This document shows, piece by piece, positions 1,839 to 61,208 of a DNA stretch of 64,000 bases (its first letter is position 1; the number at the start of each line of letters is the position of its first letter). Source of the DNA: an uncultured Anaerolineae bacterium (GTDB lineage Bacteria; Chloroflexota; Anaerolineae; Aggregatilineales; UBA3940). Under the pieces are notes generated by a model. That model was not told the origin of the DNA. It worked only from the letters and a program-made list of their open reading frames with translations, and searched no databases. The stretch covers positions 11,957 through 75,956 of the forward strand of contig CAZRXG010000015.1 of the NCBI GenBank assembly GCA_964603985.1, read 5' to 3'. Both the position numbers and the translations under genes were made by a program.

Positions 1839-4286
1839 GTGAGCGCCCGCAATGCAACGTCCCACCCCCGGCTCCCGGTCACCACGTTGCTGGCCGTCGG
1901 GCTGCTCTCGGCGGCGATGCTGTCCTTTGAGCTGACGCTGACGCGCCTGTTCGCCGTCGCGCAGTTCTACCACTTTGCTTTCATGGTGATCAGCCTGGCG
2001 CTGCTGGGCCTGGGTGCGGCAGGCTCGCTGTTGAGCGTGTGGCCGAGCCTGGGTGAACACCCCGCCCGGTGGGCGGTGGGCCTTGCGCTGGCGACGTTGG
2101 TAAGTTATGCCATCCTCAACCTGATCCCCTTTGACTCGTATGCCATTGCATGGGACCGCCGTCAGGCGCTTTACCTGGTGCTGACCTTCGCCGGGGCGGC
2201 GCTGCCCTTCGTGTTCGGTGGGTTGGTAGTCGGTGGGCTGCTGGCCGCAGACGTGCGTGGCCTGCATCGCGTCTATGCCGCCAATTTGGCCGGGTCGGCG
2301 TTGGGCTGTGTCGTCGTGCTGCCGCTGCTCGGTTGGTTGGGTGGTGAGGGTGCGTTGTTCGCCGGGGCTGCGTTGGGGCTGGTGGGGGCCGCGTTGTTCG
2401 GCATCGGGCGTGCCGATGGGGGGCGGAGGATCGGGGAACTGGTTGGGGTCGGGGCTGGCATCGTCGCCCTGCTCGTCCTGGCGGTCGCACGCCCGGAGTG
2501 GGCGGCCATCCGGCTCTCGCCTTACAAGGGGCTGCATCAGGCGCTGCTCGCCCCCACTGCCGATCACACCGTATCGGAGTGGGGGATCGTGGCGCGCGTG
2601 GACGTGGTTGAGAGTGACTCGATCCACATCATGCCCGGCCTCAGCCAGAATGCGCTGATCGCTTACCCGCCGCGACAGGCCGGGCTGACGCTCGATGGGG
2701 ACAATCTGATGCCGATCACCGCGCTTGCGCCTGAAGATGAATTAGCCCGCGCGCTGGCTGCCAACGTCCCCCAGGCGGTGGTGACCGCGCTGCGCCCTGC
2801 CCCGGCGTCGGTCTTGATTCTGGAGCCGGGTGGTGGATGGGACGTGCTGTTGGCGCTGGCGGGCGGTGCGGAGTCGGTGATGGTCGTCGAGCGCAGTCCG
2901 CTCGTCGTGAGCGTCCTGCGGGACGATTATGCCGATTTCACACGCCGCCTGTACGATGACCCGCGCGTGATGGTCGTCGTGGCCGAGGGGCGCACTTACG
3001 TTCGTCGCACCGAGCGGCGCTTTGACGTGATCGTCCTCTCGTTGAGTGATTCGTTTCACCCGGTCACATCGGGAGCTTACAGCCTGAGTGAGGATTATCG
3101 CTACACCGTCGAGGCGGTCGGTGATGCGCTGGATCACCTTGCGCCGGGGGGGGTGCTGGTCATGATGCGCTGGTTACAAACCCCGCCCACAGAGTCGCTG
3201 CGCGCGCTGGGGACGGTTGAGGCTGCGCTCCGTGCCCGTGACGTGGAGCGCCCTGCCGATCACATTGCTGCGCTGCGTGGCATGCGCACCATGACCTTCG
3301 TCGTAGGTGAGCAGCCGCTCGGCGCTGCCGACCGGGGGGCAATCCGCGCCTTTGCCGCCTCGCGCGGTTATGACCTGGTCTGGTTGCCGGGCATCTCACC
3401 CGATGAGGTCAATCTCCGCAGTCGCCTGCCTGAACCGGCTTATTACCTGGCCTTCGCTGCGCTGCTCGATGACCCGGTGGGCTTCGTGCGCGGCCACGAG
3501 TTTGACATCCGCCCGCCCACAGACGACCGGCCTTTCTTCTTCCACTACTTCCGTTGGCGGCAGACGCCGCGCGTGTTGGCCGAGTTGGGCCACACCTGGC
3601 AGCCCTTCGGTGGGAGCGGTTACTTTGTGCTGGTGGCGCTGCTCGTCCTGGTGACGATCCTGGCCGCGCTGGCGATTTTCGGGCCGCTGGTGGCCGGGAG
3701 AGTCCCCGCGCCGGGGCCTCGCCCTCACCGGCGGGGAGTGCGCGTCCGGGCGCTGGCTTACTTCTTCGCCCTGGGGTTGGCCTTCCTGTTCGTCGAGATC
3801 CCGCTCGCGCAGCGCTTCATCCTGTTCCTGGGCCAGCCGGTGACGGCGCTGTCGGTGGTGCTGTTCGCGATTCTGCTTTTTTCGGGGGTGGGCAGTCTGA
3901 GTGCGCCGCGCTGGTCGATCCGGGTCGCGTTGGGTGCGTTGGTGATTGCCGTGCTGCTGACGCCGCTCGTGCTGCGCGGCGTGTTCGCGCTGGCGCTGGG
4001 GTGGCCGCTCGCGGGGCGCGTTGCCGTCGCGATCCTCAGCCTGGCCCCGATGGGCGTGCTGATGGGCGTGCCCTTCGCGCGAGGGATGGCCCTCGTTGAG
4101 GAGGCCGCGCCCGGCCTGACGCCCTGGGCGTGGGCGATCAATGGCAGTGCGTCGGTCATCAGTGGGGTGTTGGCGGTCATGGCTGCGCTGAGCTGGGGGT
4201 TCTCGGTGGTGCTGTGGGTGGGCGCGGGGACATACGCGTTGGCGCTGGTCGCCATCGGGGGGATGGACACGGCCCCCACCGGATAG
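1839..4286 (+). CDS. membrane-embedded spermidine synthase-like (aminopropyltransferase-fold) protein
   Basis: ORF 1752..4286, trimmed to the in-frame GTG at 1839 just after the upstream stop. Many TM helices at both ends. Central SAM-MTase/spermidine-synthase-like block: VLILEPGGGWDVLLAL...VMVVERSP...DPRVMVVVAEGRTYV...FDVIVLSLSD...LAPGGVLVM. Confidence 0.75.
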   Translation: MSARNATSHPRLPVTTLLAVGLLSAAMLSFELTLTRLFAVAQFYHFAFMVISLALLGLGAAGSLLSVWPSLGEHPARWAVGLALATLVSYAILNLIPFDSYAIAWDRRQALYLVLTFAGAALPFVFGGLVVGGLLAADVRGLHRVYAANLAGSALGCVVVLPLLGWLGGEGALFAGAALGLVGAALFGIGRADGGRRIGELVGVGAGIVALLVLAVARPEWAAIRLSPYKGLHQALLAPTADHTVSEWGIVARVDVVESDSIHIMPGLSQNALIAYPPRQAGLTLDGDNLMPITALAPEDELARALAANVPQAVVTALRPAPASVLILEPGGGWDVLLALAGGAESVMVVERSPLVVSVLRDDYADFTRRLYDDPRVMVVVAEGRTYVRRTERRFDVIVLSLSDSFHPVTSGAYSLSEDYRYTVEAVGDALDHLAPGGVLVMMRWLQTPPTESLRALGTVEAALRARDVERPADHIAALRGMRTMTFVVGEQPLGAADRGAIRAFAASRGYDLVWLPGISPDEVNLRSRLPEPAYYLAFAALLDDPVGFVRGHEFDIRPPTDDRPFFFHYFRWRQTPRVLAELGHTWQPFGGSGYFVLVALLVLVTILAALAIFGPLVAGRVPAPGPRPHRRGVRVRALAYFFALGLAFLFVEIPLAQRFILFLGQPVTALSVVLFAILLFSGVGSLSAPRWSIRVALGALVIAVLLTPLVLRGVFALALGWPLAGRVAVAILSLAPMGVLMGVPFARGMALVEEAAPGLTPWAWAINGSASVISGVLAVMAALSWGFSVVLWVGAGTYALALVAIGGMDTAPTG

Positions 4287-44654: not shown

Positions 44655-44762
44655 GGCCCCGGCGGCCCGGCTCACGCCAACGAGCGACGGGAATACGCTT
44701 CCCTCCGCGTGGGCAGGGAGTATAATCGGTGAACAGCGTCGCTCGTGATGAGGGAGATCGAC

Positions 44763-46193
44763 ATGCTTGAGTACCAGCCGTTCTACGCCAATTCATACGC
44801 CCTGGTGATGGGCATTAACGCCTATAAGCACCTGGCTCCGCTCTCGGCGGCGGTGGGTGGTGCGGAGCGCCTGGCGGGCGTCCTGGAGGAGCACTATGAC
44901 TTCGAGGTGACGCTGCTGGCGGATCGGCGCGTGACGCGTGATGCGGTCTTCGAGTGGTTGGGCGCGATGGCCCACGACGCCGGGCCGGACGACCGGGTGC
45001 TGATCTACTTCGCCGGGCACGGGATGACGCGTGGATCGGGCGTCTATGAGCGGGGTTACCTGGGCCTGGCGCACTCCGAGCCGGGCCGCTGGCACACCAC
45101 GCTGGCGATGGACGACATCATCGAGGAGGCGCGCTTCCTCAAGGCCAAGCACCTGCTTTACCTGCTCGACTGCTGCTTCGGCGGGATGGCGCTTGAGACG
45201 CGGGCGGCGGTCGACGTGCCGCGCGAGCTTGATTACTACCTGACACGCCCGGTGCGCTACGTGATCACGGCGGGCGGCAAAGAGGTGGTCGATGATGCGC
45301 TGGCCCCCGGCATGGAGCAGAGCCTGTTCACCCACCACCTGCTGGAGTGGCTGGTTAGCGAGCACGTCAGGCCGCCGGGGGGCATCTGGCGGGCGCGCGA
45401 ATTGGGCAATTACCTTGAGCGCACGGTGGCGCGCAACCGGCGCAGCGGTCACAAGCCGAATCACAATTACCTGCCGGGCAGCGGTGATGGCGATTTCCTG
45501 TTCCGGTGGGAGAGCGACCCGCGCCTGATCACCGAGGGCGTGAGTGGCGCGCTGCGCTCGACGAGCTGGCACGTGCGGCAGGGCGCGGTGGCGGCGCTGA
45601 TCGACATGGCGCGCGGTGACGATGCCGAGCGGGTGGCCTACGCCCGTGACCGGCTGGCGCGCATCGCGGGGGAGGACGCGGACGAGCGCGTGCGGCAGAC
45701 GGCGCAGGTCTTCCTCGATGAAGAGCCGCCCCCGCCTCCACCCGTGACCGAAGCCCCGCCGCCTGTGCCGGTCGCCGCGCCGCCGGAGGTGCGGCCCCGG
45801 CCCGCCGGGGTGATGCCCGTCCTCAGGCGGTGGTGGGGCGTGATCCTCTGTGGGCTGGCCGCCGTGCTGGTGGCGATCCGCTTTGCGGTGGATGTACTCG
45901 AACTTTTCTGGAGTGACTTCGTTTACGGCTCCAGGCAGGAGATCGTGGTCGCAGCCGGGCTGCTCATCGGCGTGGTCGGCGTGGGGCACCTCACCAGACG
46001 GCGCTGGCTGCGCGGCGCGCTCTTCCTGCTGGCCGCGCCGGGCTGGCTGTTGTTCGTGCTGTACGAAACCTTCGAGTGGTACAACACCTGGCTGCACTGG
46101 TTGGACTACCTGGTGTGGCTGCCCTTTGTCCTGACCGTCGGAGCGCTGGTCTGGTCGGTGGTGGACGCCGTCCGGGGCGGGGAAGAGAGCTAG
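44763..46193 (+). CDS. caspase-like (peptidase C14) protein with HEAT-like repeat and C-terminal TM helices
   Basis: YALVMGINAY..., VLIYFAGHGMT, LLYLLDCCFGG. HEAT-like HVRQGAVAAL...DADERVRQTA. 3-4 C-terminal TM helices. Start at MLEYQ after GAGGGAG. Confidence 0.85.
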   Translation: MLEYQPFYANSYALVMGINAYKHLAPLSAAVGGAERLAGVLEEHYDFEVTLLADRRVTRDAVFEWLGAMAHDAGPDDRVLIYFAGHGMTRGSGVYERGYLGLAHSEPGRWHTTLAMDDIIEEARFLKAKHLLYLLDCCFGGMALETRAAVDVPRELDYYLTRPVRYVITAGGKEVVDDALAPGMEQSLFTHHLLEWLVSEHVRPPGGIWRARELGNYLERTVARNRRSGHKPNHNYLPGSGDGDFLFRWESDPRLITEGVSGALRSTSWHVRQGAVAALIDMARGDDAERVAYARDRLARIAGEDADERVRQTAQVFLDEEPPPPPPVTEAPPPVPVAAPPEVRPRPAGVMPVLRRWWGVILCGLAAVLVAIRFAVDVLELFWSDFVYGSRQEIVVAAGLLIGVVGVGHLTRRRWLRGALFLLAAPGWLLFVLYETFEWYNTWLHWLDYLVWLPFVLTVGALVWSVVDAVRGGEES

Positions 46194-52482: not shown

Positions 52483-52928
52483 TGGCACCCAAACAAGACA
52501 CCCGCGCGGACGTTCGTTTTGTGCTGGAGGGCGAGGTGGAGCGCGACGGCCTGATGGTCTACCCGCCGGGCGCGACCGTCACCGGGCGCTTCGAGGTCAT
52601 GCCCAACCGCGACCTGGAGTGCCGTCACCTGCTGCTCCAGCTTGAGTGGCACACCGAGGGACGCGGCGACCGTGACGGCAAGGTCATCGAGGAGGCCGAC
52701 CTCTTCCAGGGCGTGCTGACGGCGGGCGTCTCAATCGGGGAGGACTTCGTCTTCACGCTGCCCGACCAGCCCTGGAGCTACGCCGGGCACTACGTCAACA
52801 TCGTGTGGGCCGTCTCGATCAAGATCGACATCCCGCGCGCTAAGGACGTTAACGCCAGCCAGCCGTTCATCATGACGCCCGACCGGGACCGTGTGACGCC
52901 AGAATCCGCGCCAGACTCGATCTGGTGA
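52482..52928 (+). CDS. soluble arrestin/Spo0M-like domain protein
   Basis: Its ATG shares one base with the upstream TGA (TGATG), and GCAGGAGG is the SD. Pattern VRFVLEGEVERDGLMVYPPGATVTGRFEV...LLLQLEWHTEGRGD...FTLPDQPWSYAGHYVNIVWAVSIKIDIP. Confidence 0.65.
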   Translation: MAPKQDTRADVRFVLEGEVERDGLMVYPPGATVTGRFEVMPNRDLECRHLLLQLEWHTEGRGDRDGKVIEEADLFQGVLTAGVSIGEDFVFTLPDQPWSYAGHYVNIVWAVSIKIDIPRAKDVNASQPFIMTPDRDRVTPESAPDSIW

Positions 52929-53565
52929 TCGCGCCCGGCGCGTCCAGGCGCTGGAAAACCTCGTACAGCAGCAGCTCCGACGCGCGCAGGTCGCCGCCGT
53001 AGGTCTCCCACAGCAGTGCGACTGCCTCTGGCGTGAGGCTCACGCGCGGCGGGTCGTCGAGTGCGAAGGCTACCAGCCGACGCGCCAGCGCCGCCGCCAG
53101 ATGCTCGCGCGTGACCGCCGCCGCCAGGTGGACGGTCGTCAGCGGCAGGCCGCGCCGCGCAAAAGCCGCCCCCAGATCGTCGTGGCTGGCGACGACCAGC
53201 CGCAGTCCGCGCATTGCCGCTCGCAGCAGCCGCGCCCGGTGCCGCCCGCCGAGCCGCTGCGCCTCGTCGAGCAGGAAGCGGTCGAGGCCGCCCAGGCTGG
53301 TGTGGAAGCGGCGCTCGCCTTCGGGCAGGCGCTCGTAGGCCACGCGCTCGCCCGCCTCGCCGAAGTGCTCGGCCAGCCACAGCAGCACGGTCGTCTTGCC
53401 GAACCCCTTCTCGCCGATCAGTTGCAGGTGCGCGGGGTCGGCCTCAAGCGCCGCCGCCACCGCCGGGGGCAGCACCGCGATGGCCGCCCACTCGTCACGC
53501 GTCAGCGCGCCGAACGGGTTGCGCTCGAAGCCAAGCCTGCGGAACGGGAAGTAGCGGTCGGGCAT
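52870..53565 (-). CDS. ExeA-like AAA/P-loop ATPase (231 aa)
   Basis: Start at MPDRYFPFRRLGFERNPF (an ExeA-type N-terminus). Walker A GEKGFGKTT, Walker B FLLDEAQ. The 3' end overlaps the convergent gene by 59 nt. Confidence 0.65.
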   Translation of the reverse strand: MPDRYFPFRRLGFERNPFGALTRDEWAAIAVLPPAVAAALEADPAHLQLIGEKGFGKTTVLLWLAEHFGEAGERVAYERLPEGERRFHTSLGGLDRFLLDEAQRLGGRHRARLLRAAMRGLRLVVASHDDLGAAFARRGLPLTTVHLAAAVTREHLAAALARRLVAFALDDPPRVSLTPEAVALLWETYGGDLRASELLLYEVFQRLDAPGAITRSSLARILASHGPGRAS

Positions 53566-53688
53566 GGTGACTATGGTAGCACGGGCCGGGCCGGGGGGCG
53601 AGGTGGGCCTTTGCGCTCCAACACGGTTGACACGTCGCCCGGCGCGGAGTTTAATAGTAGCCTGCCCTGATCGTACAGGAGCGTAGCC

Positions 53689-54681
53689 ATGACTGACCAA
53701 CCGAAGCGCGACCGGCGAGATGAATCGGCCAGCACACACGCCAACGGCGATTTTGTTGCGGGCGACAAGAGCCAACTGGCCGACATCGCCCGTATGCGCG
53801 GTGACTGGGACGAAGCCGGGACGCTCTACCGCGCGGCGCTGGAGGAGTTCGAGGCGCTGGGCGACCGGTGGGGCGTGGCGGTCAGCAAGGGCAAGCTGGC
53901 CGACATCGCCGCCAATCGCGGCAACTGGGCCGAGGCCGAGGCGCTGTTCGAAGAGGCCATCGCCGTCATGAAACAGTTAGGTGACCGGCAACAGGTGGCC
54001 GCGATGCAAGGGGTGTTGGCCGACGTCGCCCGCATGCGTGGCAACTGGGACGAGGCCGAGAAGTTGTTGAATGAAGCTATGGCAGTTTCCATCGAGATTG
54101 GCGACCGGCGTGATGCGGCCGTCAAAAAGGGCAAGCTGGCCGACATCGCCGCCCATCGCGGTGACTGGGACGCAGCCGAGATGCTACGCAAAGAGGTGCT
54201 GGCCGAATACGAGGCGCTGGGCGACCGGCAGGGTGTGGTGGTCAGCAAGGGCAAGCTGGCCAACATCGCCGCCAGGCACGGCGACTGGGCCGAGGCCGAG
54301 ATGCTCTACGGCGCGGCGCTGGCGGGGTTCGAGGCGCTGGGCGACCGGCAGCAGATTGCAGTTGTCAAGGGTAAGCTGGCCGACATCGTCGCCCATCGCG
54401 GCGATTGGGACGCAGCCGAGACACTCAACCGCGAGGCACTGGGTGAGTGCCGGGCGCTGGGTGCGTTGGTCGAGGAGGCGGTCAGGTCGTATAACTTTGC
54501 GGGTATGCTGTGCAGGCTGGGGCGGTTGGCCGAGGCCGTCGAGCTGATGGAACGTGTGGTGGAGATCGACGAGCAGGTCAACCACCCCGATCTGGAGAGG
54601 AACCGGGCGCGCCTGGAGCAGTTCCGTGCCGAGTTGAAGAAACGCGGCGGCGGGCAGGGAGATCAGGCCGCCAGGGGATGA
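53689..54681 (+). CDS. TPR-like helical repeat protein with 6-7 tandem 40-residue repeats
   Basis: Repeats of the form KGKLADIAAHRGDWDEAE.L...AL..FEALGDRQGVAV. The 120-bp period is visible at the DNA level. Confidence 0.75.
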   Translation: MTDQPKRDRRDESASTHANGDFVAGDKSQLADIARMRGDWDEAGTLYRAALEEFEALGDRWGVAVSKGKLADIAANRGNWAEAEALFEEAIAVMKQLGDRQQVAAMQGVLADVARMRGNWDEAEKLLNEAMAVSIEIGDRRDAAVKKGKLADIAAHRGDWDAAEMLRKEVLAEYEALGDRQGVVVSKGKLANIAARHGDWAEAEMLYGAALAGFEALGDRQQIAVVKGKLADIVAHRGDWDAAETLNREALGECRALGALVEEAVRSYNFAGMLCRLGRLAEAVELMERVVEIDEQVNHPDLERNRARLEQFRAELKKRGGGQGDQAARG

Positions 54682-54727
54682 CGCCGGGCCGTCTCGTCTT
54701 CTGCGCGGAGTCGTGCTATGATGGCCT
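54682..54727 (+). repeat. 46-bp perfect direct repeat, copy 1 (contains extended -10 TGcTATGAT)
   Basis: cgccgggccgtctcgtcttctgcgcggagtcgtgctatgatggcct is identical to 55342-55387. Confidence 0.9.
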
Positions 54728-54755
54728 GGCAGGACACAGTCCCTGGGAGCGGCAT

Positions 54756-54956
54756 ATGCAGGTTCAACTGGACGGCCAGCTTGTCAGGCTGCTTCAGCGC
54801 CTCGCCGAGCAGCAGGAGCGCGGCGTTGATGAGCTTGTCAAGGAGGCGGTGGAGCAGTATCTCATCCGCCAGCAAGAGGCAGCGGAGTTCGACGCCGACA
54901 TCAGGCGCATCATGGATGAACACGCCTGGCTGCTCAAAAAACTTGCCAAGTCGTGA
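54756..54956 (+). CDS. putative antitoxin (Phd-role; RHH-like by eye) of the Doc toxin
   Basis: 66 aa, MQVQLDGQLVRLLQRLAEQQERGVDELVKEAVEQYL.... Its stop overlaps the GTG start of doc as GTGA. Confidence 0.7.
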   Translation: MQVQLDGQLVRLLQRLAEQQERGVDELVKEAVEQYLIRQQEAAEFDADIRRIMDEHAWLLKKLAKS

Positions 54957-55333
54957 CACGCTACCTCACCGCCGACGAAGTCGAGCGGATCAATGGCATG
55001 GTTCTGGGCGGCCAATCGGCGCTTCGCGACCGGGCCTTACTTGAGTCGGCTGTAGCACGCCCGGCGAGCAGCGCGTTCGGCGAGGATGCATACCCGACGA
55101 CGCTTGATAAAGCTGCTGCCCTGTTGCACTCGCTCGTGCTCAATCATCCCTTTGTGGATGGCAATAAGCGCACCGCGACCGTGGCGATGATCTACTTCCT
55201 GGAACGCAATGGCCTACGCGTCACGTGGGAGCCTGCTGAGGCGTTGGACTTCATCCTCGAAGTCGCCCAGGGCCAACATGATGTCCCTGCTATTGTGGCT
55301 TGGCTGGCAGATAATACGGAAGCCGCGCCGTAG
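54953..55333 (+). CDS. doc: Doc (death-on-curing) Fic-family toxin
   Basis: HPFVDGNKRTA motif, 126 aa, paired with the small upstream gene. Confidence 0.9.
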   Translation: MTRYLTADEVERINGMVLGGQSALRDRALLESAVARPASSAFGEDAYPTTLDKAAALLHSLVLNHPFVDGNKRTATVAMIYFLERNGLRVTWEPAEALDFILEVAQGQHDVPAIVAWLADNTEAAP

Positions 55334-56516: not shown

Positions 56517-57920
56517 GTGGGCGCGCCACGCGGCAACCCCAACCACAGGCGGGGCGCATTGATGGGCACCGGTGAGGTGCTCGCGCCGCCCCGGAGAGCA
56601 TGTCAACGACCGCATGGTCACGAGCCGGACGGCCAGCCGCCCACCGCGACGCACAGCACGCCGGGGGTACGAGACACCGTGCCCCCGGCGGCGCTGGCAA
56701 GTGAAAGGAGTGACACAATCGACAGGTTACGTTATCGCGTCTCAGATCTGCGGGCCGACCAGCGCGCCATCGCCCGGTGCGACGTGCGCTTCAAGGTCGT
56801 GGCTTGTGGACGGCGCTGGGGCAAGACGACGCTCGGCCTGGTGATGGCCGTAAACTCCGCGCGGCGCGGTCGGCGGGTGTGGTGGGTCGCGCCGACCTAC
56901 GGGCTGGCCTTCCACCCCTGGAGGGCGCTCAAGTCGGTGCTGTTCCGCGAGTGGGCGCTCAAGCTCGAAGCGGAGCGCTACATCGAGCTGAAGAACGGGG
57001 GCAACATCACCGTCAAGTCCGCCGAGGACCCGGACAGCCTGCGCGGGGTGGGGCTGGACGCGCTCGTGATCGACGAGGCGGCCTTCGTGGCCGAGGAGGC
57101 GTGGACGGCCTGCCTGCGCCCGGCGCTCGCGGATCGCAGGGGGCGGGCGTTGATGATCTCGACGCCGAAGGGACGCAACTGGTTCTACCACGCCTTTGAG
57201 CGCGGGCGTGACCCGCTGGTCGAGGATTGGCGGGCGTGGCGCTATCCGAGCGCGGCCAACCCGCTGATCGGGGATCGCGAGATCGCCGATGCGCACGCGC
57301 TGATGCCCGATCGCATCTTCAAGCAGGAGTTCGAAGCCGAGTTCATGGCCGACGGCGGTGAGGTGTTCCGCAACCTTGAGGCGGCGGCCATCGCCCCCAT
57401 CGACGCGCAGCCCACCCTCGGCCACCGCTACGTGATGGGCGTTGACTTCGCGCGTTACGAGGACTTCACCGCGCTGGTCGTGATCGACGCCGACGAGGGG
57501 GCGATGGTGGCACTGGACCGCTTCAGCGAGGTCAACTGGGGAGTGCAGCGGGCGCGCATCGCGGCGCTGGCGCGGCGGTGGGACGTGTCGATGATCCTGG
57601 CCGAGGCCAACGCGATGGGCGAGCCGAACATCGAGGCGCTGCGCGACCAGGACCTGCCGATCCAGGGCTTCACCACGACGGCGCGCAGCAAGCCGCCGCT
57701 GATTGAGGGGCTGGTGGTGGCGATTGAGAACGAGGATCTCAGACTGCTGCCCGACCCGGTGCTGTTGGGCGAGTTGGAGAGCTTCGCTTACAGCAACACG
57801 CCCTTTGGGACGCAGTACGGCGCGCCGCCGGGCCGCCACGACGACACGGTGATCGCGCTGGCGCTGGCGTGGCGGCTGGCCTCGGTGCCCAGGTTGACGC
57901 TGGCGATTGCGGTGGTGTGA
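56517..57920 (+). CDS. phage terminase large subunit (orphan); true start uncertain, probably near 56680-56720
   Basis: Walker A VACGRRWGKTT, Walker B ALVIDEAAF, STPKGRNWF. C-terminal RNaseH-like nuclease with VMGVDFA and HDDTVIALALA. The first roughly 60 codons are Arg/Pro-rich and unlikely to be coding. Confidence 0.8.
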   Translation: MGAPRGNPNHRRGALMGTGEVLAPPRRACQRPHGHEPDGQPPTATHSTPGVRDTVPPAALASERSDTIDRLRYRVSDLRADQRAIARCDVRFKVVACGRRWGKTTLGLVMAVNSARRGRRVWWVAPTYGLAFHPWRALKSVLFREWALKLEAERYIELKNGGNITVKSAEDPDSLRGVGLDALVIDEAAFVAEEAWTACLRPALADRRGRALMISTPKGRNWFYHAFERGRDPLVEDWRAWRYPSAANPLIGDREIADAHALMPDRIFKQEFEAEFMADGGEVFRNLEAAAIAPIDAQPTLGHRYVMGVDFARYEDFTALVVIDADEGAMVALDRFSEVNWGVQRARIAALARRWDVSMILAEANAMGEPNIEALRDQDLPIQGFTTTARSKPPLIEGLVVAIENEDLRLLPDPVLLGELESFAYSNTPFGTQYGAPPGRHDDTVIALALAWRLASVPRLTLAIAVV

Positions 57921-58017
57921 GGGGGGTATGTTGCACAGGCACCCTGGCGAGAGTATAGTTGTGAACAAGCTCTGTCCCTTTGCGAATTCAGACAGGCGTT
58001 GGCTTCGCGGGTGCTTG

Positions 58018-58779
58018 ATGGCCGATCTAGCCAGAATCAAATATCGCCACTCCCCCATCATAGAGGTTGTGTGTGAGTTCCGCTTTGTCTCAGACGCACG
58101 GTGGGATGCGGCCGTTCCTGACCGGATCTACGACCGGATCAAGGGCGTATTTCCGGGGAAGAGGAAGGCCCAGGTGGTCGAAAGCATAACCGGGGTGGCA
58201 CATGAGGCTGGCGTTGAGCAGAAAGTAACCATAATTGAGCGCCAACAGTTCCTGCGGGAAGATGAAACTGCATTCGTTCAGGTCAGCCCCAACTTTCTGG
58301 CAATCAACCATCTCAAACCGTATCCTACCTGGGAGAAGTACTTACCGTTAATAAGGCATGCGTTCGAGGCTTACGTTGGCGCGGCGCAACCGCAGGGGCT
58401 GCACCGCATTGGGCTGCGGTACATTAACCGGATCGAGTTTGAGGCCAAGAAGACGTACCTGGAAGAACACTTCAAGTTCCGACCGCAGCACCCATCCATG
58501 TCCGAGGTCAGGTTTGAAGCATTCCTGGTTGGGCTGGACGTGGTATATGAAGAGGAGCGCGACCGGTTGAGAATGCAATTGGCCAGCTCACCGCCTGAAT
58601 CACCGGGTAAGCTCGTGGCGATCTTTGACCTCGACTATTCGCTCGTCCAGGCTGAGGCGGTATCGCTGGACGAGGCAATCGGCTGGGTGGATAAAACAGC
58701 TCACTCGCGCATACAGCAGGCTTTTGAGGACTGTCTTACTCAGGATCTGAAGAACAGGTTTGAACCGGAACAGGAGTGA
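58018..58779 (+). CDS. TIGR04255-like uncharacterised protein
   Basis: MADLARIKYRHSPIIEVVCEFRF... matches my recollection of the TIGR04255 N-terminus (Y.n.Pl.EV..E.RF). Lower GC. The family call is unverified. Confidence 0.6.
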   Translation: MADLARIKYRHSPIIEVVCEFRFVSDARWDAAVPDRIYDRIKGVFPGKRKAQVVESITGVAHEAGVEQKVTIIERQQFLREDETAFVQVSPNFLAINHLKPYPTWEKYLPLIRHAFEAYVGAAQPQGLHRIGLRYINRIEFEAKKTYLEEHFKFRPQHPSMSEVRFEAFLVGLDVVYEEERDRLRMQLASSPPESPGKLVAIFDLDYSLVQAEAVSLDEAIGWVDKTAHSRIQQAFEDCLTQDLKNRFEPEQE

Positions 58780-58785
58780 GTCATC

Positions 58786-59199
58786 TTGCAGGCTTTTACT
58801 CCCTCAAGGTGGTACATACCATCGCCCACCACGAGCCATACTAAGCCGGAACTTGCAATCGATCCAACCGACCGGGCCTGGCCAAGTATTGAGGGCTTCT
58901 ACACCGTCCAGGATGAGGACACCATATTTGCTTTTCTAAGAAAACATCCGGAGATCAATGTTCTGCTTATAGAGGCACGCCGACCGCTCAGCAAACTCTT
59001 TGGCCCCAACCCGCAAGTAGAACTCCGGGTAGTCTCTGACCCGGAGGCAGAGGGGTTCGAAGAGCTGTTCGGCTATATCAGGACATCTCTACCGGTTGAG
59101 GAAGCCCTTGCACAACTCGATGCGTTCGATGAAGCTTGGTTGCTAAATGCCCTCGACAGAGCCAATGGGAAGCTCAACTTTAACCTTATTTTCCAATGA
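58786..59199 (+). CDS. hypothetical protein (137 aa) translationally coupled to the HEPN gene
   Basis: TTG start 7 nt after the upstream stop. Its stop overlaps the next ATG as ATGA. No nucleotidyltransferase (GS..G / DxD) motif seen. Confidence 0.5.
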   Translation: MQAFTPSRWYIPSPTTSHTKPELAIDPTDRAWPSIEGFYTVQDEDTIFAFLRKHPEINVLLIEARRPLSKLFGPNPQVELRVVSDPEAEGFEELFGYIRTSLPVEEALAQLDAFDEAWLLNALDRANGKLNFNLIFQ

Positions 59200-59573
59200 G
59201 TTTTGACTGGTCGGACTATCTCTCGCTGGCCGAATCTCTGTCTCAACACCCCGAAGCCCCCGGTCCCGAAGAAGCCGCCCTTCGTGCGGCCATCAGCCGG
59301 GCATATTATGCAGCCCACTGTACGGCCCGTAATTTCGCACGCAGCCGGGGGATCACCCTGACTAGAACGGGGCGCGATCATCAACTGGTTATCGACTATT
59401 TCAAGGAATCAAAGGACAAGGGAAGAAAAAGCATCGGTCTCTGGTTAGACCGTCTGCGCGATGATCGAAATAAAGCTGACTACGACGACACGCTGACCGG
59501 CGATCCCAGGTTACAGGCCCAATCCTCGGTAGCTCAAGCCAGGAGTGTCCTCACGAAGCTCAATACCCTTTGA
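59196..59573 (+). CDS. HEPN domain protein (UPF0332-like)
   Basis: ...AISRAYYAAHCTARNFARSRGI......DHQLVIDYF............WLDRLRDDRNKADYDD matches the HEPN/UPF0332 pattern sRaYYa.fhaa.alL...gi....H..v...F...l...R...DY. Confidence 0.65.
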   Translation: MSFDWSDYLSLAESLSQHPEAPGPEEAALRAAISRAYYAAHCTARNFARSRGITLTRTGRDHQLVIDYFKESKDKGRKSIGLWLDRLRDDRNKADYDDTLTGDPRLQAQSSVAQARSVLTKLNTL

Positions 59574-59645
59574 TCAGCCAAAAACCTCCTTTAACCCGGA
59601 GGCCGATCCTCCGGAGAAGGTCATAGTGAGAGCAGCTGCCAGCCC

Positions 59646-61208
59646 TCACCGCCTGCGCAATAGCAGCGCCATGATAGCCAGCACCAGCGCGATGCTGCCC
59701 AGCGTGATCCCCAGGTAAGGCGCCGTCTGCGTGACGGTGATCCCGGTCAGTGCGAGGATCAAATCGGCCAGCGCCGCGCCGGTCAGGATCCCCGCCAGCC
59801 AGTTGAGGAACTCGGTGGCGCGCGCCTCGCGGTAATCGTGGAACTCGCTGGCGTAGCTGAGCAAAAGCTCCTGCTTGCACTCGAAGCGCTCGGCCAGTTG
59901 GTCGAGCTTGTGATAGCTTCCTGCCCGCTCCAGGAACTCGACGCGGGTGGCGAAGGGCGTGATGCCCTCGCGGTACTGCACCAGGTCGGCCAGCGCGCCC
60001 TGGAGCGCGGCGATCATCGCGCGGCGGTGCGGCGTGGGGGCGGCGGCCAGCGCGTCGAGGCGCTGGATGTAGGAGCGCAGGATGGCGTCCTGCAGGTAGA
60101 CCCACTCCAGCAGGACGGTGTAGTGAGCGTAGAGGTAGGTGACGGCGTGTTCGGCGTCCAGACGCAGGCGCTTCTCCAGGCCGGGCAGGATGCCGGACAG
60201 CAGGTCGTTGTAGAGGATCAGCTCGCTGTTGCCCAGCAGGTAGACCGCCGCCTCGCTGTCCACGCTCAGATTGTCGGCTAGCTCGCGCTCGACCAGCCAC
60301 CCGGCGCGCTCGTGGTAGAAGGTGTCCATCGCGCCGATGCCGCGCAGTGGGGCGGCGTGCCCGGCGATGAAGGCCGGGAAGTCGGCGGCGGCAGGTGGGT
60401 CGGTTTCGAGCAGCACGACGGTCGTCGAGCCGGTGGGGCGCGGGGCCTCGCCGAGGACGGCCTGCTGCCGCTCCTGGTGCTTGCGCTGACGGCGTCTGCG
60501 CGGCGGCGCGGTGGACTCGTAGCGCGCGCTCAGGCGGGCGGCCATGACCTGTGCAACGTCGCGCAGGCTGGCGACGGCCAGGTGCCAGCCGGGGGTGTCC
60601 TCGACGATCAGGGAGATGTGGGCCGTCGAGGGGTCGGCGGGCAGCACGGCCCGCCAGTCGGCTGACAGGTTGAGCAGTTGCTGGCTGATGCCCAGCCGCA
60701 CCAGCTCGATAGCCTGCTCCGGCGTGTAGCCGGGAGCAGCCTCACCGGTGGGGGCGTCAAATGAGGCGTGGTACTCCATGATGCCCACCCCGGCCCGGTG
60801 GAGCAGCAGGAAAGGCGTGATCGCGATCCACGCGCTCGCTTCGTCGGCCTCCAGTGCGGCCTCCACAACCTGGCCGGGCATGAGTGCGTCGGGTGGACGG
60901 CGATGCCTGTCGCAGGCCGTGCGCAGGCTTGCCATCTCAAAGGATGCGAACTGGAATCGCAGCAGGTCGTCGTAGCCGATGCTGGCCACGTTGCGCGAGA
61001 CGCGCTCCAGCACGCGCAGTCCGGGGGGCTGGACGTTGCGGGGCGAGAGGCGGTCGGCGTGATAGCAGGGCAGGGGGGTCAGGCGCTCGCGGCTGCCTTC
61101 GAGGAAGTCGGGCAGTGGGTCGGCGACGACGAAGGTATTGCGCCAGATGACGTGCATTTGCCGGACGCGCAGGGTGGGCGCGGGCGTGGATTCGGGTTGA
61201 ACGGTCAT
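59646..61208 (-). CDS. hypothetical 520-aa protein with two C-terminal TM helices (CorA-like topology, no GMN motif)
   Basis: Long ORF with normal composition. C-terminus FLNWLAGILTGAALADLILAL ... LGITLGSIALVLAIMALLL. Confidence 0.65.
   Translation of the reverse strand: MTVQPESTPAPTLRVRQMHVIWRNTFVVADPLPDFLEGSRERLTPLPCYHADRLSPRNVQPPGLRVLERVSRNVASIGYDDLLRFQFASFEMASLRTACDRHRRPPDALMPGQVVEAALEADEASAWIAITPFLLLHRAGVGIMEYHASFDAPTGEAAPGYTPEQAIELVRLGISQQLLNLSADWRAVLPADPSTAHISLIVEDTPGWHLAVASLRDVAQVMAARLSARYESTAPPRRRRQRKHQERQQAVLGEAPRPTGSTTVVLLETDPPAAADFPAFIAGHAAPLRGIGAMDTFYHERAGWLVERELADNLSVDSEAAVYLLGNSELILYNDLLSGILPGLEKRLRLDAEHAVTYLYAHYTVLLEWVYLQDAILRSYIQRLDALAAAPTPHRRAMIAALQGALADLVQYREGITPFATRVEFLERAGSYHKLDQLAERFECKQELLLSYASEFHDYREARATEFLNWLAGILTGAALADLILALTGITVTQTAPYLGITLGSIALVLAIMALLLRRR

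What the first reader, a model, noticed from the sequence alone, without database searches (positions are those of the whole stretch)
58018..59573. Tight three-gene cassette: TIGR04255-like protein + unknown 137-aa protein + HEPN (UPF0332-like), with a non-MNT partner
The three ORFs are packed tightly, with a 6-nt gap and then an ATGA overlap. They have visibly lower GC than the flanks and sit between an orphan terminase and a convergent 520-aa membrane protein. The last gene has the HEPN/UPF0332 pattern (SRAYYAAHCTA...DHQLVIDYF...LRDDRNKADYDD). HEPN proteins of this class are normally preceded by a minimal nucleotidyltransferase antitoxin, but the 137-aa upstream protein shows no GS..G/DxD NTase motif. 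The first gene belongs, by my recollection of its N-terminus, to the sporadically distributed and uncharacterised TIGR04255 family. This is a candidate new toxin-antitoxin or defence module.
Basis: partly seen in the sequence, partly recalled or inferred. Interest (0 to 1): 0.65.

Follow-up and report, generated by a model that had tools for sequence, protein, structure and literature searches.

The report
Three-gene HEPN toxin-antitoxin-like cassette
This is a real, horizontally moving three-gene operon in which a HEPN-type putative RNA toxin pairs with a new kind of acidic partner protein instead of its usual nucleotidyltransferase antidote. The operon is led by an uncharacterised TIGR04255 protein that also heads other toxin-like gene trios in unrelated bacteria.

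Summary
There are three co-directional genes: g1 at 58018-58779, g2 at 58786-59199 and g3 at 59196-59573. They are separated by a 6-nt gap and an ATGA overlap. The cassette has 54% GC against 69.5% in both neighbouring genes.

- **g1** is a full-length TIGR04255 protein (130 bits, cutoff 30).
- **g3** is a UPF0332-type HEPN.
- **g2** matches no Pfam, NCBIfam, PADLOC or PHROG model. Its confident AF2 model has no PDB neighbour and is not a nucleotidyltransferase. Its C-terminal ~100 residues define a large unnamed family (2018 clusters at 50% identity).

Linkage is very strong. Of 63 informative metagenomic loci found through g1 relatives, 62 carry g2 and 62 carry HEPN, in the same order. The g2-HEPN pair also occurs alone, or behind a different first gene. 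Distant TIGR04255 genes on plasmids head other trios, including Xre-HTH protein plus unknown protein, and unknown protein plus Zeta toxin.

HEPN is often decayed while g2 stays intact. g2 is acidic and HEPN basic.

Best reading: a tripartite toxin-antitoxin-like conflict module with a new antitoxin family and TIGR04255 as a shared accessory component. Function is untested. I rate it a new variant of a known kind.

The parts
57932..57959 (+). Weak sigma-70-like promoter match (TGCACA-16-TATAGT) in the 97-nt spacer between the terminase stop and the g1 start. Possible operon promoter.
   Evidence: 9 of 12 hexamer matches. The region holds 2 such sites against 0.9 expected, so this is not significant on its own.
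58018..58779 (+). g1: TIGR04255 family protein, 253 aa, the first gene of the operon. The predicted structure is two repeats of an antiparallel beta-sheet plus a long helix. Family-wide invariant residues are Y102, R134, Y135, D204, D206 and T241, with R130 and G132 nearly invariant.
   Evidence: NCBIfam TIGR04255 130.1 bits, positions 1-252 of 252. AF2 pLDDT 93.3, pTM 0.89. Invariant columns from 12 sequences of 15-35% identity. No PDB match by sequence or fold.
58786..59199 (+). g2: 137-aa acidic protein (pI 4.6) with a TTG start. Residues ~1-33 form a variable N-terminal extension. Residues ~34-136 form a conserved unnamed domain with motifs FG...V.L.V..DPE and LD.FDE.W. This is the putative antitoxin or adaptor.
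   Evidence: No hit in Pfam, NCBIfam, PADLOC or PHROGs. 2018 representative clusters at E<=1e-3. AF2 pLDDT 92.2 with order H-H-H-H-E-E-H-E. Best Foldseek PDB hit E 3.7e-3, highest TMq 0.41. The TTG start and N-terminus are conserved in L001.
59196..59573 (+). g3: UPF0332-type HEPN protein, 125 aa, basic. Its start overlaps the g2 stop (ATGA). This is the putative toxin or effector. Invariant residues are the MSFDW N-terminus, E26, R30, S34-RAYYA39, H62, R86, R91, A94 and D95. Y96 is conserved in at least 90% of sequences.
   Evidence: Pfam HEPN E 4.3e-4. PADLOC PDC-M05B E 4.6e-5. phrog_5176 E 2.9e-12. Profile against PDB: 9xbd HEPN 1.9e-8, Retron-Kva2 HEPN 0.015, AF0298 UPF0332 0.21. Alignment.
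59596..59614 (.). Perfect 7-bp GC-rich stem-loop (CCGGAGG-CCGAT-CCTCCGG) between the convergent stops of g3 and the 520-aa gene. Possible bidirectional transcript end, with no T-run.
   Evidence: Sequence and RNAfold, -16.9 kcal/mol for 59581-59630. The terminator scan, which requires a T-run, did not call it.

Best explanation
This is a mobile, tripartite toxin-antitoxin-like conflict module.

**Shown**
- The three genes form a conserved, translationally coupled operon in the order TIGR04255, g2, HEPN.
- The g2-HEPN pair is the core and can exist without TIGR04255.
- TIGR04255 genes in other phyla head other three-gene sets whose second gene looks like an antitoxin (Xre-HTH) or whose third gene is a known toxin (Zeta).

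**Inferred**
- The basic UPF0332-type HEPN protein is the growth-arresting effector. It most likely binds or cleaves RNA through the conserved R86/R91/D95/Y96 cluster and H62.
- The acidic g2 protein, made just before it from the same message, neutralises it by direct binding. It therefore fills the place that the MNT nucleotidyltransferase holds in classical HEPN-MNT pairs, but without enzymatic chemistry.
- The variable N-terminal extension of g2 is the handle through which the first-gene product acts. The extension type changes with the type of first gene.
- TIGR04255 is an accessory controller (sensor, trigger or stabiliser) of the antitoxin. Its invariant R-x-G-x-R, D-x-D, Tyr and Thr residues on beta-strands suggest that it binds a phosphate-bearing ligand or nucleotide, possibly with a metal. 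A weak, recurring structural resemblance to triphosphate-tunnel (CYTH/TTM) enzymes points the same way.
For: **Linkage**
- 62 of 63 informative loci found through TIGR04255 carry g2, and 62 carry HEPN, in the same order and strand.
- 10 of 13 genome loci found through g2 have HEPN directly downstream. Two of the other three (L014, L015) are cut short at a contig end.
- The g2-HEPN junctions are mostly ATGA overlaps or gaps of 8 nt or less.

**Mobility**
- The cassette GC is about 15 points below its flanking genes.
- It sits in different neighbourhoods in different genomes: between TldD/PmbA and gatC in L003 and L006, next to pyruvate kinase in L021, next to a terminase here.
- Source names span Chloroflexota, Bipolaricaulia, Caldithrix, Thermodesulfobacteriota, Tectomicrobia and Fraserbacteria. 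It is also on Thermus plasmid pTB1 beside VapC/CopG and CRISPR genes.

**Toxin-like asymmetry**
- HEPN is missing, frameshifted or truncated while g2 stays intact in L011, L012, L031, L042, L057, L119, L120 and P0259. The reverse case is seen once, in L075.

**Charge and rate**
- Median pI is 4.7 for g2 and 9.3 for HEPN.
- Against the one close relative, g2 and g3 have dN 0.061-0.064, while g1 and the flanking genes have 0.012-0.020.

**Modularity of TIGR04255**
- Other trios are TIGR04255 + 179-aa protein + Zeta toxin in Vibrio parahaemolyticus, and TIGR04255 + Xre-HTH protein + unknown protein in Chroococcidiopsis, R. etli, A. baumannii and V. furnissii. Further variants occur in Crinalium and Rhizobium.
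- An unrelated ~210-aa first gene recurs with a long-N-terminus g2 in L008, L020 and L114.

**TIGR04255 residues and fold hints**
- Foldseek against BFVD finds RNA 5'-triphosphatase/capping enzymes at E 5e-4 to 1e-3 and a CYTH protein. The PDB list includes Pct1 and YgiF.
Against: - There is no experimental evidence of toxicity, neutralisation or phage defence for any member.
- The canonical HEPN Rx4-6H RNase motif is absent (R91-x4-Y96), so catalysis is uncertain.
- g2 has no recognisable DNA-binding domain, unlike most type II antitoxins.
- No PADLOC model matches g1 or g2.
- The cassette is very rare in viral contigs: one locus each for g1 and g2 among 2.9 million. g2 is absent from the plasmid collection.
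- Many copies sit among housekeeping genes.
- The CYTH/TTM resemblance has low TM-scores (0.13-0.20) and no sequence support.
- The link between g2 extension type and first-gene type rests on few loci.
Confidence: 0.6

Rival explanations
1. Enzymatic (type VII-like) neutralisation by TIGR04255. In this reading g1, not g2, is the functional replacement of MNT. It uses its invariant D-x-D and Arg residues to transfer a nucleotide or phosphate onto the conserved HEPN Tyr96, and g2 acts as a scaffold or adaptor.
For: HEPN keeps the Tyr next to the R-N-x-A-D motif (Y96 conserved in at least 90%). Published HEPN-MNT systems AMPylate the HEPN toxin (PMC11586414 abstract), and a conserved C-terminal HEPN tyrosine was proposed as the target (PMC3710099). 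g1 has invariant D204-x-D206, R130/R134 and Y135. There are weak structural hits to triphosphate-handling enzymes. The nearest solved HEPN pair, 9xbd/9xbc, differs by Y to F at the equivalent position.
Against: g2-HEPN pairs are common without any TIGR04255 gene nearby (L009, L010, L016-L019, L116, L117), so g1 cannot be required for neutralisation. The same g1 family precedes unrelated third genes such as Zeta toxin and proteins with a conserved QTCD motif, which argues against one substrate-specific chemistry. g1 does not have a nucleotidyltransferase fold.
Confidence: 0.12
2. Chaperone-addicted toxin-antitoxin system (TAC-like). In this reading TIGR04255 is a dedicated chaperone. It binds the disordered N-terminal extension of g2 and protects it from aggregation or proteolysis. 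Loss of the chaperone would free HEPN.
For: The accessory gene is shared by several unrelated antitoxin-toxin-like pairs. The g2 extension varies and co-varies with the first gene. Short g2 forms of 104-117 aa are paired with HEPN. The window's g2 N-terminus has lower pLDDT, 69-72.
Against: g1 matches no SecB or other chaperone family in Pfam or NCBIfam. It carries invariant charged residues (R, D-x-D) that look more like a ligand or active site than a chaperone surface. In described TAC operons the chaperone gene comes last, not first (own knowledge).
Confidence: 0.13
3. Not a conflict system. In this reading the trio is a housekeeping or regulatory RNA-metabolism complex, with HEPN as a non-toxic RNA-binding subunit, that happens to be patchily distributed.
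For: Many copies lie among core metabolic genes. The canonical RNase motif is absent. Non-catalytic regulatory HEPN domains such as MtlR are known (PMC3710099). All three genes are under purifying selection.
Against: The distribution is patchy across phyla and insertion sites vary. The GC content is anomalous, and copies occur on plasmids beside other TA, restriction-modification and CRISPR genes. HEPN is lost repeatedly while g2 is retained. g2 and HEPN evolve faster than their neighbours. Homologous positions in other trios hold Zeta toxin or Xre antitoxin-like proteins.
Confidence: 0.1
4. A canonical HEPN-MNT pair in which the 137-aa protein is a very divergent minimal nucleotidyltransferase.
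For: The gene order and the overlap with HEPN are those of MNT-HEPN dyads (PMC3710099). The residue pattern G73-x11-D85-x-E87 superficially recalls the G-S...D-x-D motif.
Against: None of 56 family members hits a Pfam nucleotidyltransferase family at E<=0.01. hhalign against a real MNT gives probability 0.6%. In the confident AF2 model G73 follows a helix, and D85-P-E87 sits in a beta-hairpin loop rather than on the catalytic strand. No nucleotidyltransferase is in the top 50 Foldseek PDB hits. There is no Ser after the Gly, and the Pro in DPE is conserved in at least 90% of sequences.
Confidence: 0.02

Closest known systems
HEPN-MNT toxin-antitoxin systems (type VII; e.g. Shewanella SO_3165/SO_3166, Legionella HEPN-MNT)
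   Same: A small HEPN protein is encoded as the 3' gene, translationally coupled to a small upstream partner. The distribution is patchy and mobile. A conserved Tyr sits next to the conserved Arg motif. The HEPN is of the UPF0332/COG2250-like kind that classically pairs with MNT.
   Different: The upstream partner is not a nucleotidyltransferase by sequence, profile or predicted fold. A third gene, TIGR04255, is obligately attached in this subfamily. The canonical Rx4-6H motif is replaced by R-x4-Y plus a distant invariant His.
HEPN (MAE_18760 family) + ParA/Soj ATPase dyads described by Anantharaman et al. 2013 (PMC3710099)
   Same: This is a precedent for a HEPN toxin whose 5' partner is something other than MNT and is inferred to be the antitoxin from gene position.
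   Different: The partner here has no P-loop and no ATPase similarity. It has a new alpha/beta domain, the HEPN subfamily is different, and there is an extra first gene.
Toxin-antitoxin-chaperone (TAC) systems with a SecB-like chaperone (own knowledge: M. tuberculosis HigB1-HigA1-Rv1957)
   Same: The layout is tripartite, with an accessory protein that serves several unrelated antitoxin-toxin pairs. The antitoxin carries a variable extension that may mediate dependence on the third protein.
   Different: TIGR04255 is not SecB-like. It is encoded first rather than last, and it carries invariant R and D-x-D residues suggestive of ligand binding. Dependence has not been tested.
omega-epsilon-zeta / PezAT three-gene cassettes (own knowledge)
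   Same: The gene order is accessory gene, antitoxin, toxin. One TIGR04255 family member in a Vibrio parahaemolyticus plasmid is followed by a 179-aa protein and a Zeta toxin (Pfam Zeta_toxin 3.1e-12).
   Different: Omega is a ~70-aa ribbon-helix-helix repressor, whereas TIGR04255 is a ~250-aa two-lobed beta/alpha protein with no DNA-binding signature. The toxin in the window is HEPN, not Zeta.
PADLOC candidate system PDC-M05 (component B)
   Same: g3 weakly matches three PDC-M05B models, best E 4.6e-5.
   Different: g1 and g2 match no PADLOC model, and the match is only at the level of a generic HEPN. This is not the same system.
CYTH / triphosphate tunnel metalloenzymes (for g1 only)
   Same: g1 has alternating charged residues on beta-strands (R130-x-G-x-R134, D204-x-D206). 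Foldseek gives recurring hits to RNA 5'-triphosphatases, Pct1, YgiF, LEF-4 and a CYTH phage protein.
   Different: TM-scores are low (0.13-0.20) and there is no sequence-profile similarity. The ExExK signature is not conserved across the family. This is only a lead.

Membership tests
TIGR04255 (NCBIfam) | Whole-protein score above the curated cutoff, with full-length coverage of the model | tested here: met
   130.1 bits against a cutoff of 30, E 1.2e-37, residues 8-249 on model positions 1-252 of 252.
HEPN domain (Pfam PF05168 / UPF0332 type) | Pfam gathering score for PF05168 | tested here: inconclusive
   g3 scores 20.9 bits against a cutoff of 22, E 4.3e-4. Close homologues carry precomputed PF05168 hits. 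The Thermus orthologue scores 27.2 bits. The subfamily profile hits solved HEPN proteins 9xbd (1.9e-8) and AF0298 UPF0332 (0.21).
HEPN domain (catalytic RNase subset) | Rx4-6H active-site motif | tested here: not met
   The conserved motif is R91-N-K-A-D95-Y96, with Tyr where His is expected. H62 is invariant but lies elsewhere. PMC3710099 notes that MNT-associated HEPNs often lack the motif or use alternative histidines, and can still be toxic.
HEPN domain | Four-helix up-down bundle fold | not tested
HEPN-MNT (type VII) toxin-antitoxin | Upstream partner is a minimal Pol-beta nucleotidyltransferase (G-S ... D-x-D) | tested here: not met
   None of 56 g2 family members hits a Pfam nucleotidyltransferase family at E<=0.01. 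hhalign against an MNT gives probability 0.6%. The AF2 topology is H-H-H-H-E-E-H-E, and no nucleotidyltransferase is in the top 50 Foldseek hits.
HEPN-MNT (type VII) toxin-antitoxin | 5' partner and 3' HEPN in one operon, with a conserved Tyr in HEPN | tested here: met
   ATGA overlap here and in most loci. Y96 is conserved in at least 90% of the subfamily.
Type II toxin-antitoxin | Small adjacent co-transcribed genes with patchy, mobile distribution | tested here: met
Type II toxin-antitoxin | Antitoxin with a DNA-binding domain (HTH, RHH, AbrB) for autoregulation | tested here: not met
   g2 and its family have no such Pfam hit. No DNA-binding fold appears in the Foldseek results. Some distant TIGR04255 trios do have an Xre-HTH second gene.
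Type II toxin-antitoxin | Toxin arrests growth, antitoxin binds and neutralises it | not testable with these tools
   This needs expression assays. The only support is indirect: HEPN decay with g2 retained, and the acidic/basic pairing.
TAC (toxin-antitoxin-chaperone) | SecB-like chaperone as third component | tested here: not met
   g1 has no SecB hit in Pfam or NCBIfam, and SecB is not among the top 50 Foldseek PDB hits.
Known anti-phage defence systems (PADLOC-DB 2.0) | Component proteins match the system's models | tested here: not met
   g1 and g2 have no hit. g3 has only weak PDC-M05B hits.
CYTH / triphosphate tunnel metalloenzyme (for g1) | Eight-stranded beta-tunnel with an ExExK motif and inward-facing basic and acidic residues | tested here: inconclusive
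   Foldseek E is 5e-4 to 3e-2 with TM 0.13-0.20. R-x-G-x-R and D-x-D are invariant, but the N-terminal E-x3-E-x-R is not conserved family-wide. There is no profile match to PDB sequences.

The most novel reading that the evidence does not exclude
TIGR04255 marks a widespread, unrecognised class of tripartite conflict systems. In this reading one conserved ligand- or nucleotide-binding beta-barrel-like protein gates many unrelated effectors (HEPN, Zeta kinase, proteins with a conserved QTCD motif). It does so through interchangeable adaptor-antitoxins, which it recognises by their N-terminal extensions. The g2 domain is then a new, large antitoxin family for HEPN toxins that works without nucleotidyl transfer.
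Probability: 0.3. Interest if true: 0.8.

Novelty: new variant of a known kind. Interest (0 to 1): 0.62.

Why it matters
- HEPN toxins are central to toxin-antitoxin, abortive-infection and CRISPR biology. Their UPF0332-type members are understood almost only as partners of MNT nucleotidyltransferases.
- Here a large HEPN subfamily is instead coupled to an unnamed domain family (about 2000 clusters at 50% identity). That domain has a confidently predicted fold with no solved relative. This implies a second, non-enzymatic way of holding HEPN in check.
- The TIGR04255 family, which returned no paper in the full-text library searched here, now has a concrete and testable context. It is the shared first gene of several different toxin-like trios on chromosomes and conjugative plasmids.
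- If confirmed, this would give both families a function and add a modular 'controller-adaptor-effector' layout to the toxin-antitoxin and defence repertoire.
- It would also supply well-defined material (three small soluble proteins) for structural and phage-defence experiments.

Tried and rejected
- **g2 word-index homology search:** it found only the window protein and one syntenic relative. The exhaustive HMMER search was needed.
- **PDB sequence-profile searches:** g2 and g1 gave nothing meaningful.
- **Foldseek against PDB:** g2 had no hit at E<=1e-3. The best matches were OsmC/Ohr, tautomerase and RbfA, with TMq up to 0.41. I do not read these as homology. For g1 there were only weak TBP, ARO/CYC, AdoMetDC and arginine kinase hits.
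- **Divergent MNT idea for g2:** rejected.
- **Alternative first gene of L008/L020/L114 as a distant TIGR04255:** hhalign probability 0.3%, rejected.
- **g2-HEPN fusion proteins as a Rosetta stone:** none found. The longer g2 representatives are a tandem g2 duplication, frameshift read-throughs, or a HEPN remnant.
- **Phage origin:** g1 and g2 each appear once in 2.9 million viral contigs, and PHROGs match only the HEPN.
- **Plasmid search for g2:** no match.
- **Rfam scan of 56-62 kb:** nothing.
- **tRNA scan:** no tRNA in the window, so there is no obvious integration site.
- **Literature:** 'TIGR04255' returns 0 papers, and 'HEPN' with 'UPF0332' returns 0. The two large comparative papers on HEPN and type II TA systems do not describe this trio.
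- **First genome scan with the 56-sequence g2 alignment:** it failed for lack of a conserved stretch and was repeated with 10 sequences.
- **The 520-aa convergent gene as part of the module:** rejected. It accompanies the cassette only in the syntenic relative.
Full report
**Observation**

The three ORFs are exactly as described. g1 runs 58018-58779 (ATG, 253 aa), g2 runs 58786-59199 (TTG, 137 aa) and g3 runs 59196-59573 (ATG, 125 aa). A 6-nt spacer separates g1 from g2, and g2 and g3 share an ATGA stop/start overlap.

The cassette has 54.2% GC. The terminase gene upstream has 69.5%, the convergent 520-aa gene downstream has 69.4%, and the window as a whole has 64.8%.

The upstream gene is a terminase large subunit (Pfam Terminase_6N/6C; phrog_2 1e-41). 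I found no other phage gene among the ORFs I scanned in 42.7-64 kb. A weak promoter-like site lies in the 97-nt spacer before g1. A perfect 7-bp stem-loop lies between the convergent stops after g3.

**Identity of the three proteins**

- **g1** is a full-length member of NCBIfam TIGR04255 (130.1 bits, cutoff 30).
- **g3** is a UPF0332-type HEPN.
  - Pfam HEPN scores 20.9 bits, E 4.3e-4, just under the cutoff of 22.
  - JGI names its homologues 'UPF0332 family', and several carry precomputed PF05168 hits.
  - A 35-sequence profile matches the solved HEPN protein 9xbd at 1.9e-8, a retron HEPN at 0.015 and AF0298 (UPF0332) at 0.21.
- **g2** matches nothing in Pfam, NCBIfam, PADLOC or PHROGs. None of 56 family members matches any Pfam nucleotidyltransferase family at E<=0.01.

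**The middle protein is a new domain family, not an MNT**

The word-index search found only one syntenic relative. The exhaustive HMMER search found 2018 representative clusters at E<=1e-3, and 416 at E<=1e-10. All of them align to residues ~34-136 of g2. The N-terminal extensions range from none to about 200 residues.

Conserved positions are W118 (invariant) and F50, A64, F72, G73, L80, D85-P86-E87, L102, L111, D115 and L120.

The AF2 model built on that alignment is confident (pLDDT 92.2, pTM 0.76). It shows four helices, a beta-hairpin whose loop carries the DPE motif, a long helix and a final strand.

Foldseek against the PDB finds no match at E<=1e-3, the highest TMq is 0.41, and no nucleotidyltransferase is in the top 50. 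A PDB sequence-profile search is empty. hhalign against a genuine MNT from locus L006 gives probability 0.6%.

**Linkage**

I built HMMs for the three families and scanned fetched loci in all six frames.

- From 13 genome loci found through g2 (all Chloroflexota), 10 have HEPN immediately downstream. One has lost it. Two (L014, L015) are cut short at a contig end. One of the 10 (L012) carries a frameshifted HEPN.
- From 80 metagenome loci found through TIGR04255 (38-51% identity to g1), 63 have at least 900 nt downstream. Of those, 62 carry g2 and 62 carry HEPN, in the same order and strand.
- Junctions between g2 and HEPN are mostly 4-nt overlaps or gaps of 8 nt or less.

This TIGR04255 subfamily is therefore essentially always attached to g2-HEPN. 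The reverse is not true. Many g2-HEPN pairs stand alone among housekeeping genes (L009, L010, L016-L019). Three independent loci (L008, L020, L114) carry a different, unrelated ~210-aa first gene.

**TIGR04255 is a shared first gene of different trios**

A tblastn search of annotated plasmids found distant family members (15-35% identity). Each is followed by two co-directional genes, in most cases overlapping or only a few nt apart.

| Host | Second gene | Third gene |
|---|---|---|
| Thermus brockianus pTB1 | divergent g2 (recognised by eye; my g2 HMM does not detect it) | unannotated HEPN (E 5.6e-33 to my HMM; Pfam HEPN 27.2 bits) |
| Vibrio parahaemolyticus | 179-aa protein | Zeta toxin (Pfam 3.1e-12) |
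| Chroococcidiopsis, R. etli | HTH-type or 'transcriptional regulator'-annotated protein of ~220 aa (Pfam HTH_3/Xre-like hits, below cutoff, in Chroococcidiopsis only) | homologous ~280-305-aa unknown |
| Kocuria, Paenarthrobacter | none annotated; a 600-800-nt unannotated gap | ~254-326-aa unknown, homologous to the third gene of the row above |
| A. baumannii, V. furnissii | HTH protein | ~275-aa unknown |
| Crinalium, Rhizobium CB3060 | further unknown proteins | further unknown proteins |

Neighbours in these records include VapC/CopG, DNA methylases, Cas6, a ubiquitin-like/ThiF/DUF6527 set, integrases, IS elements and conjugation genes. These are typical mobile or defence surroundings.

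**What the proteins look like**

*g1.* The model is confident (pLDDT 93.3, pTM 0.89) and shows two repeats of a multi-stranded antiparallel sheet followed by a long helix. It has no significant PDB neighbour. The weak hits are TBP, di-domain ARO/CYC, AdoMetDC and arginine kinase.

Against viral models the best match is an unnamed protein (E 7e-7, TMq 0.49). After that come giant-virus mRNA 5'-phosphatase/capping enzymes at E 5e-4 to 1e-3, a CYTH protein and LEF-4. The PDB list also held Pct1 and YgiF. TM-scores for these matches are low, so I treat the triphosphate-tunnel resemblance as a lead only.

Across 12 family members of 15-35% identity, the invariant residues are P46, Y102, R134, Y135, D204, D206, F236 and T241. 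P13, R130 and G132 are nearly invariant. R130-x-G-x-R134 and D204-x-D206 lie on beta-strands, so each pair points to one face. That pattern fits a phosphate or metal ligand site better than a passive scaffold.

*g3.* The subfamily has an invariant MSFDW N-terminus, E26, R30, SRAYYA, H62, R86, R91, A94 and D95, with Y96 conserved in at least 90%. The canonical Rx4-6H motif is therefore replaced by R-x4-Y plus a distant His. Anantharaman et al. discuss this situation for MNT-associated HEPNs, some of which are still toxic.

**Why a toxin-antitoxin-like reading**

1. The gene order and translational coupling match antitoxin-then-toxin dyads (for the MNT-HEPN rule).
2. The cassette is mobile. It has anomalous GC, different insertion sites, a spread over several phyla by source names, and plasmid copies.
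3. Decay is asymmetric. HEPN is absent, split or truncated with g2 intact in L011, L012, L031, L042, L057, L119, L120 and in P0259. The reverse pattern occurs once, in L075.
4. Charges are complementary. Median pI is 4.7 for g2 and 9.3 for HEPN.
5. Against the one close relative (L001), g2 and g3 have dN 0.061 and 0.064 with dN/dS 0.27 and 0.46. g1 and four flanking genes have dN 0.012-0.020 with dN/dS 0.11-0.19. This is a single pair, so it is only suggestive.
6. The homologous slots in other TIGR04255 trios hold Xre-type antitoxin-like proteins and a Zeta toxin.

**Proposed mechanism**

The steps below are marked as shown or inferred.

- *Shown:* a conserved three-gene operon, a g2-HEPN core, and a modular first gene.
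- *Inferred:* HEPN is the effector acting on RNA.
- *Inferred:* g2 neutralises HEPN by direct binding through its conserved C-terminal domain.
- *Inferred:* the g2 N-terminal extension is the contact for the first-gene product. This extension differs between TIGR04255-type trios, alternative-first-gene trios (which share an FGYRWRGEDTxDWGDP motif) and short stand-alone forms.
- *Inferred:* TIGR04255 controls the availability or stability of g2, perhaps in response to a phosphate-bearing ligand.

The main rivals are listed in the Rival explanations section:
- enzymatic modification of HEPN by g1;
- a chaperone-addiction role for g1;
- a non-conflict housekeeping role;
- the rejected divergent-MNT idea.

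**Comparison with known systems and novelty**

The module works most like HEPN-MNT and other tripartite toxin-antitoxin systems, but it fails the defining MNT test. It has no SecB-like or RHH third component, and it matches no PADLOC system.

'TIGR04255' returned no paper in the searchable library. The two large comparative studies of HEPN and type II systems do not describe the trio.

I rate it a new variant of a known kind: a HEPN toxin-antitoxin-like module with a new antitoxin family and a new accessory component. All functional statements await experiments.

Noticed in passing
window 54718-55333 (+): A Fic/Doc-family protein (54953-55333, Pfam Fic 1.3e-18) is preceded by an overlapping small ORF. 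The sequence MQVQLDGQLVRLLQRLAEQQERG... lies inside the 54510-54956 ORF; 54718-54956 is a different frame, and it is that frame which was scanned and gave no Pfam hit. By position the small ORF looks like a Phd/RHH-type antitoxin. This is probably a separate Phd-Doc toxin-antitoxin pair about 3 kb upstream of the cassette.
   Followed up: partly
window 44745-46193 (+), 52870-53775 (-), 53689-54681 (+): A caspase-domain (Peptidase_C14) protein, an AAA_16-like ATPase and a 330-aa TPR-repeat protein lie upstream, interspersed with several ORFs that have no family hit. The 44-60 kb stretch looks like an island rich in conflict-system genes.
   Followed up: partly
window 56517-57920 (+): A lone terminase large subunit with no other phage genes detected nearby. 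It is conserved in the syntenic relative L001 at 93.9% aa identity with dN/dS 0.13, so it seems to be maintained by selection rather than decaying.
   Followed up: partly
window 59646-61208 (-): A 520-aa protein with a hydrophobic C-terminus and no hit in Pfam, NCBIfam, PADLOC or PHROGs. It is conserved (95.8% aa) in the relative but is not linked to the cassette in other genomes.
   Followed up: partly
L108 4369-5286, L111 4410-5252, L112 4329-5150, L113 4356-5192, L109 4386-5366: Five of the ~250-330-aa unknown proteins downstream of distant TIGR04255 genes (the third gene of the HTH-type trios, plus the Paenarthrobacter protein) share a conserved [ST]-Q-[ST]-C-D-[IL] motif near the N-terminus. 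They match no Pfam family and may be an undescribed effector family.
   Followed up: no
L008 3713-4351, L020 3999-4655, L114 734-1366: A second, unrelated ~210-aa first gene with no family hit recurs upstream of g2-HEPN. It always comes with a long g2 whose N-terminal extension carries an FGYRWRGEDTxDWGDP-like motif.
   Followed up: partly
L106 4932-6034 (IMG/VR contig): In the only viral-contig hit, a short g2 homologue (111 aa) overlaps by 4 nt a 256-aa protein rich in Cys motifs ([28 protein letters not shown]...) rather than a HEPN. By memory this resembles the phage Gp37/Gp68 (DUF5131) family.
   Followed up: no
L006 2876-3351: In the Anaerolineales genome a genuine MNT (NTP_transf_2, 106 aa) sits about 500 nt upstream of the TIGR04255-g2-HEPN trio. 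In the near-identical contig L007 a 52-aa ORF is called right after it (3193-3351). This may be a decayed classical HEPN-MNT pair next to the new module.
   Followed up: no
L014 and L015 (same MAG, CAZHMV01): Two contigs of one Anaerolineales MAG carry g2 copies with identical HMM scores close to contig ends. This suggests a repeated or multi-copy element.
   Followed up: no
L102 5276-5683 (Thermus brockianus pTB1, NZ_CP016313.1): A HEPN gene downstream of the TIGR04255 gene and the 147-aa hypothetical gene is absent from the gene table PLSDB distributes (which is known to be incomplete). It is intact in six-frame translation (E 5.6e-33 to my HEPN HMM; Pfam HEPN 27.2 bits).
   Followed up: yes
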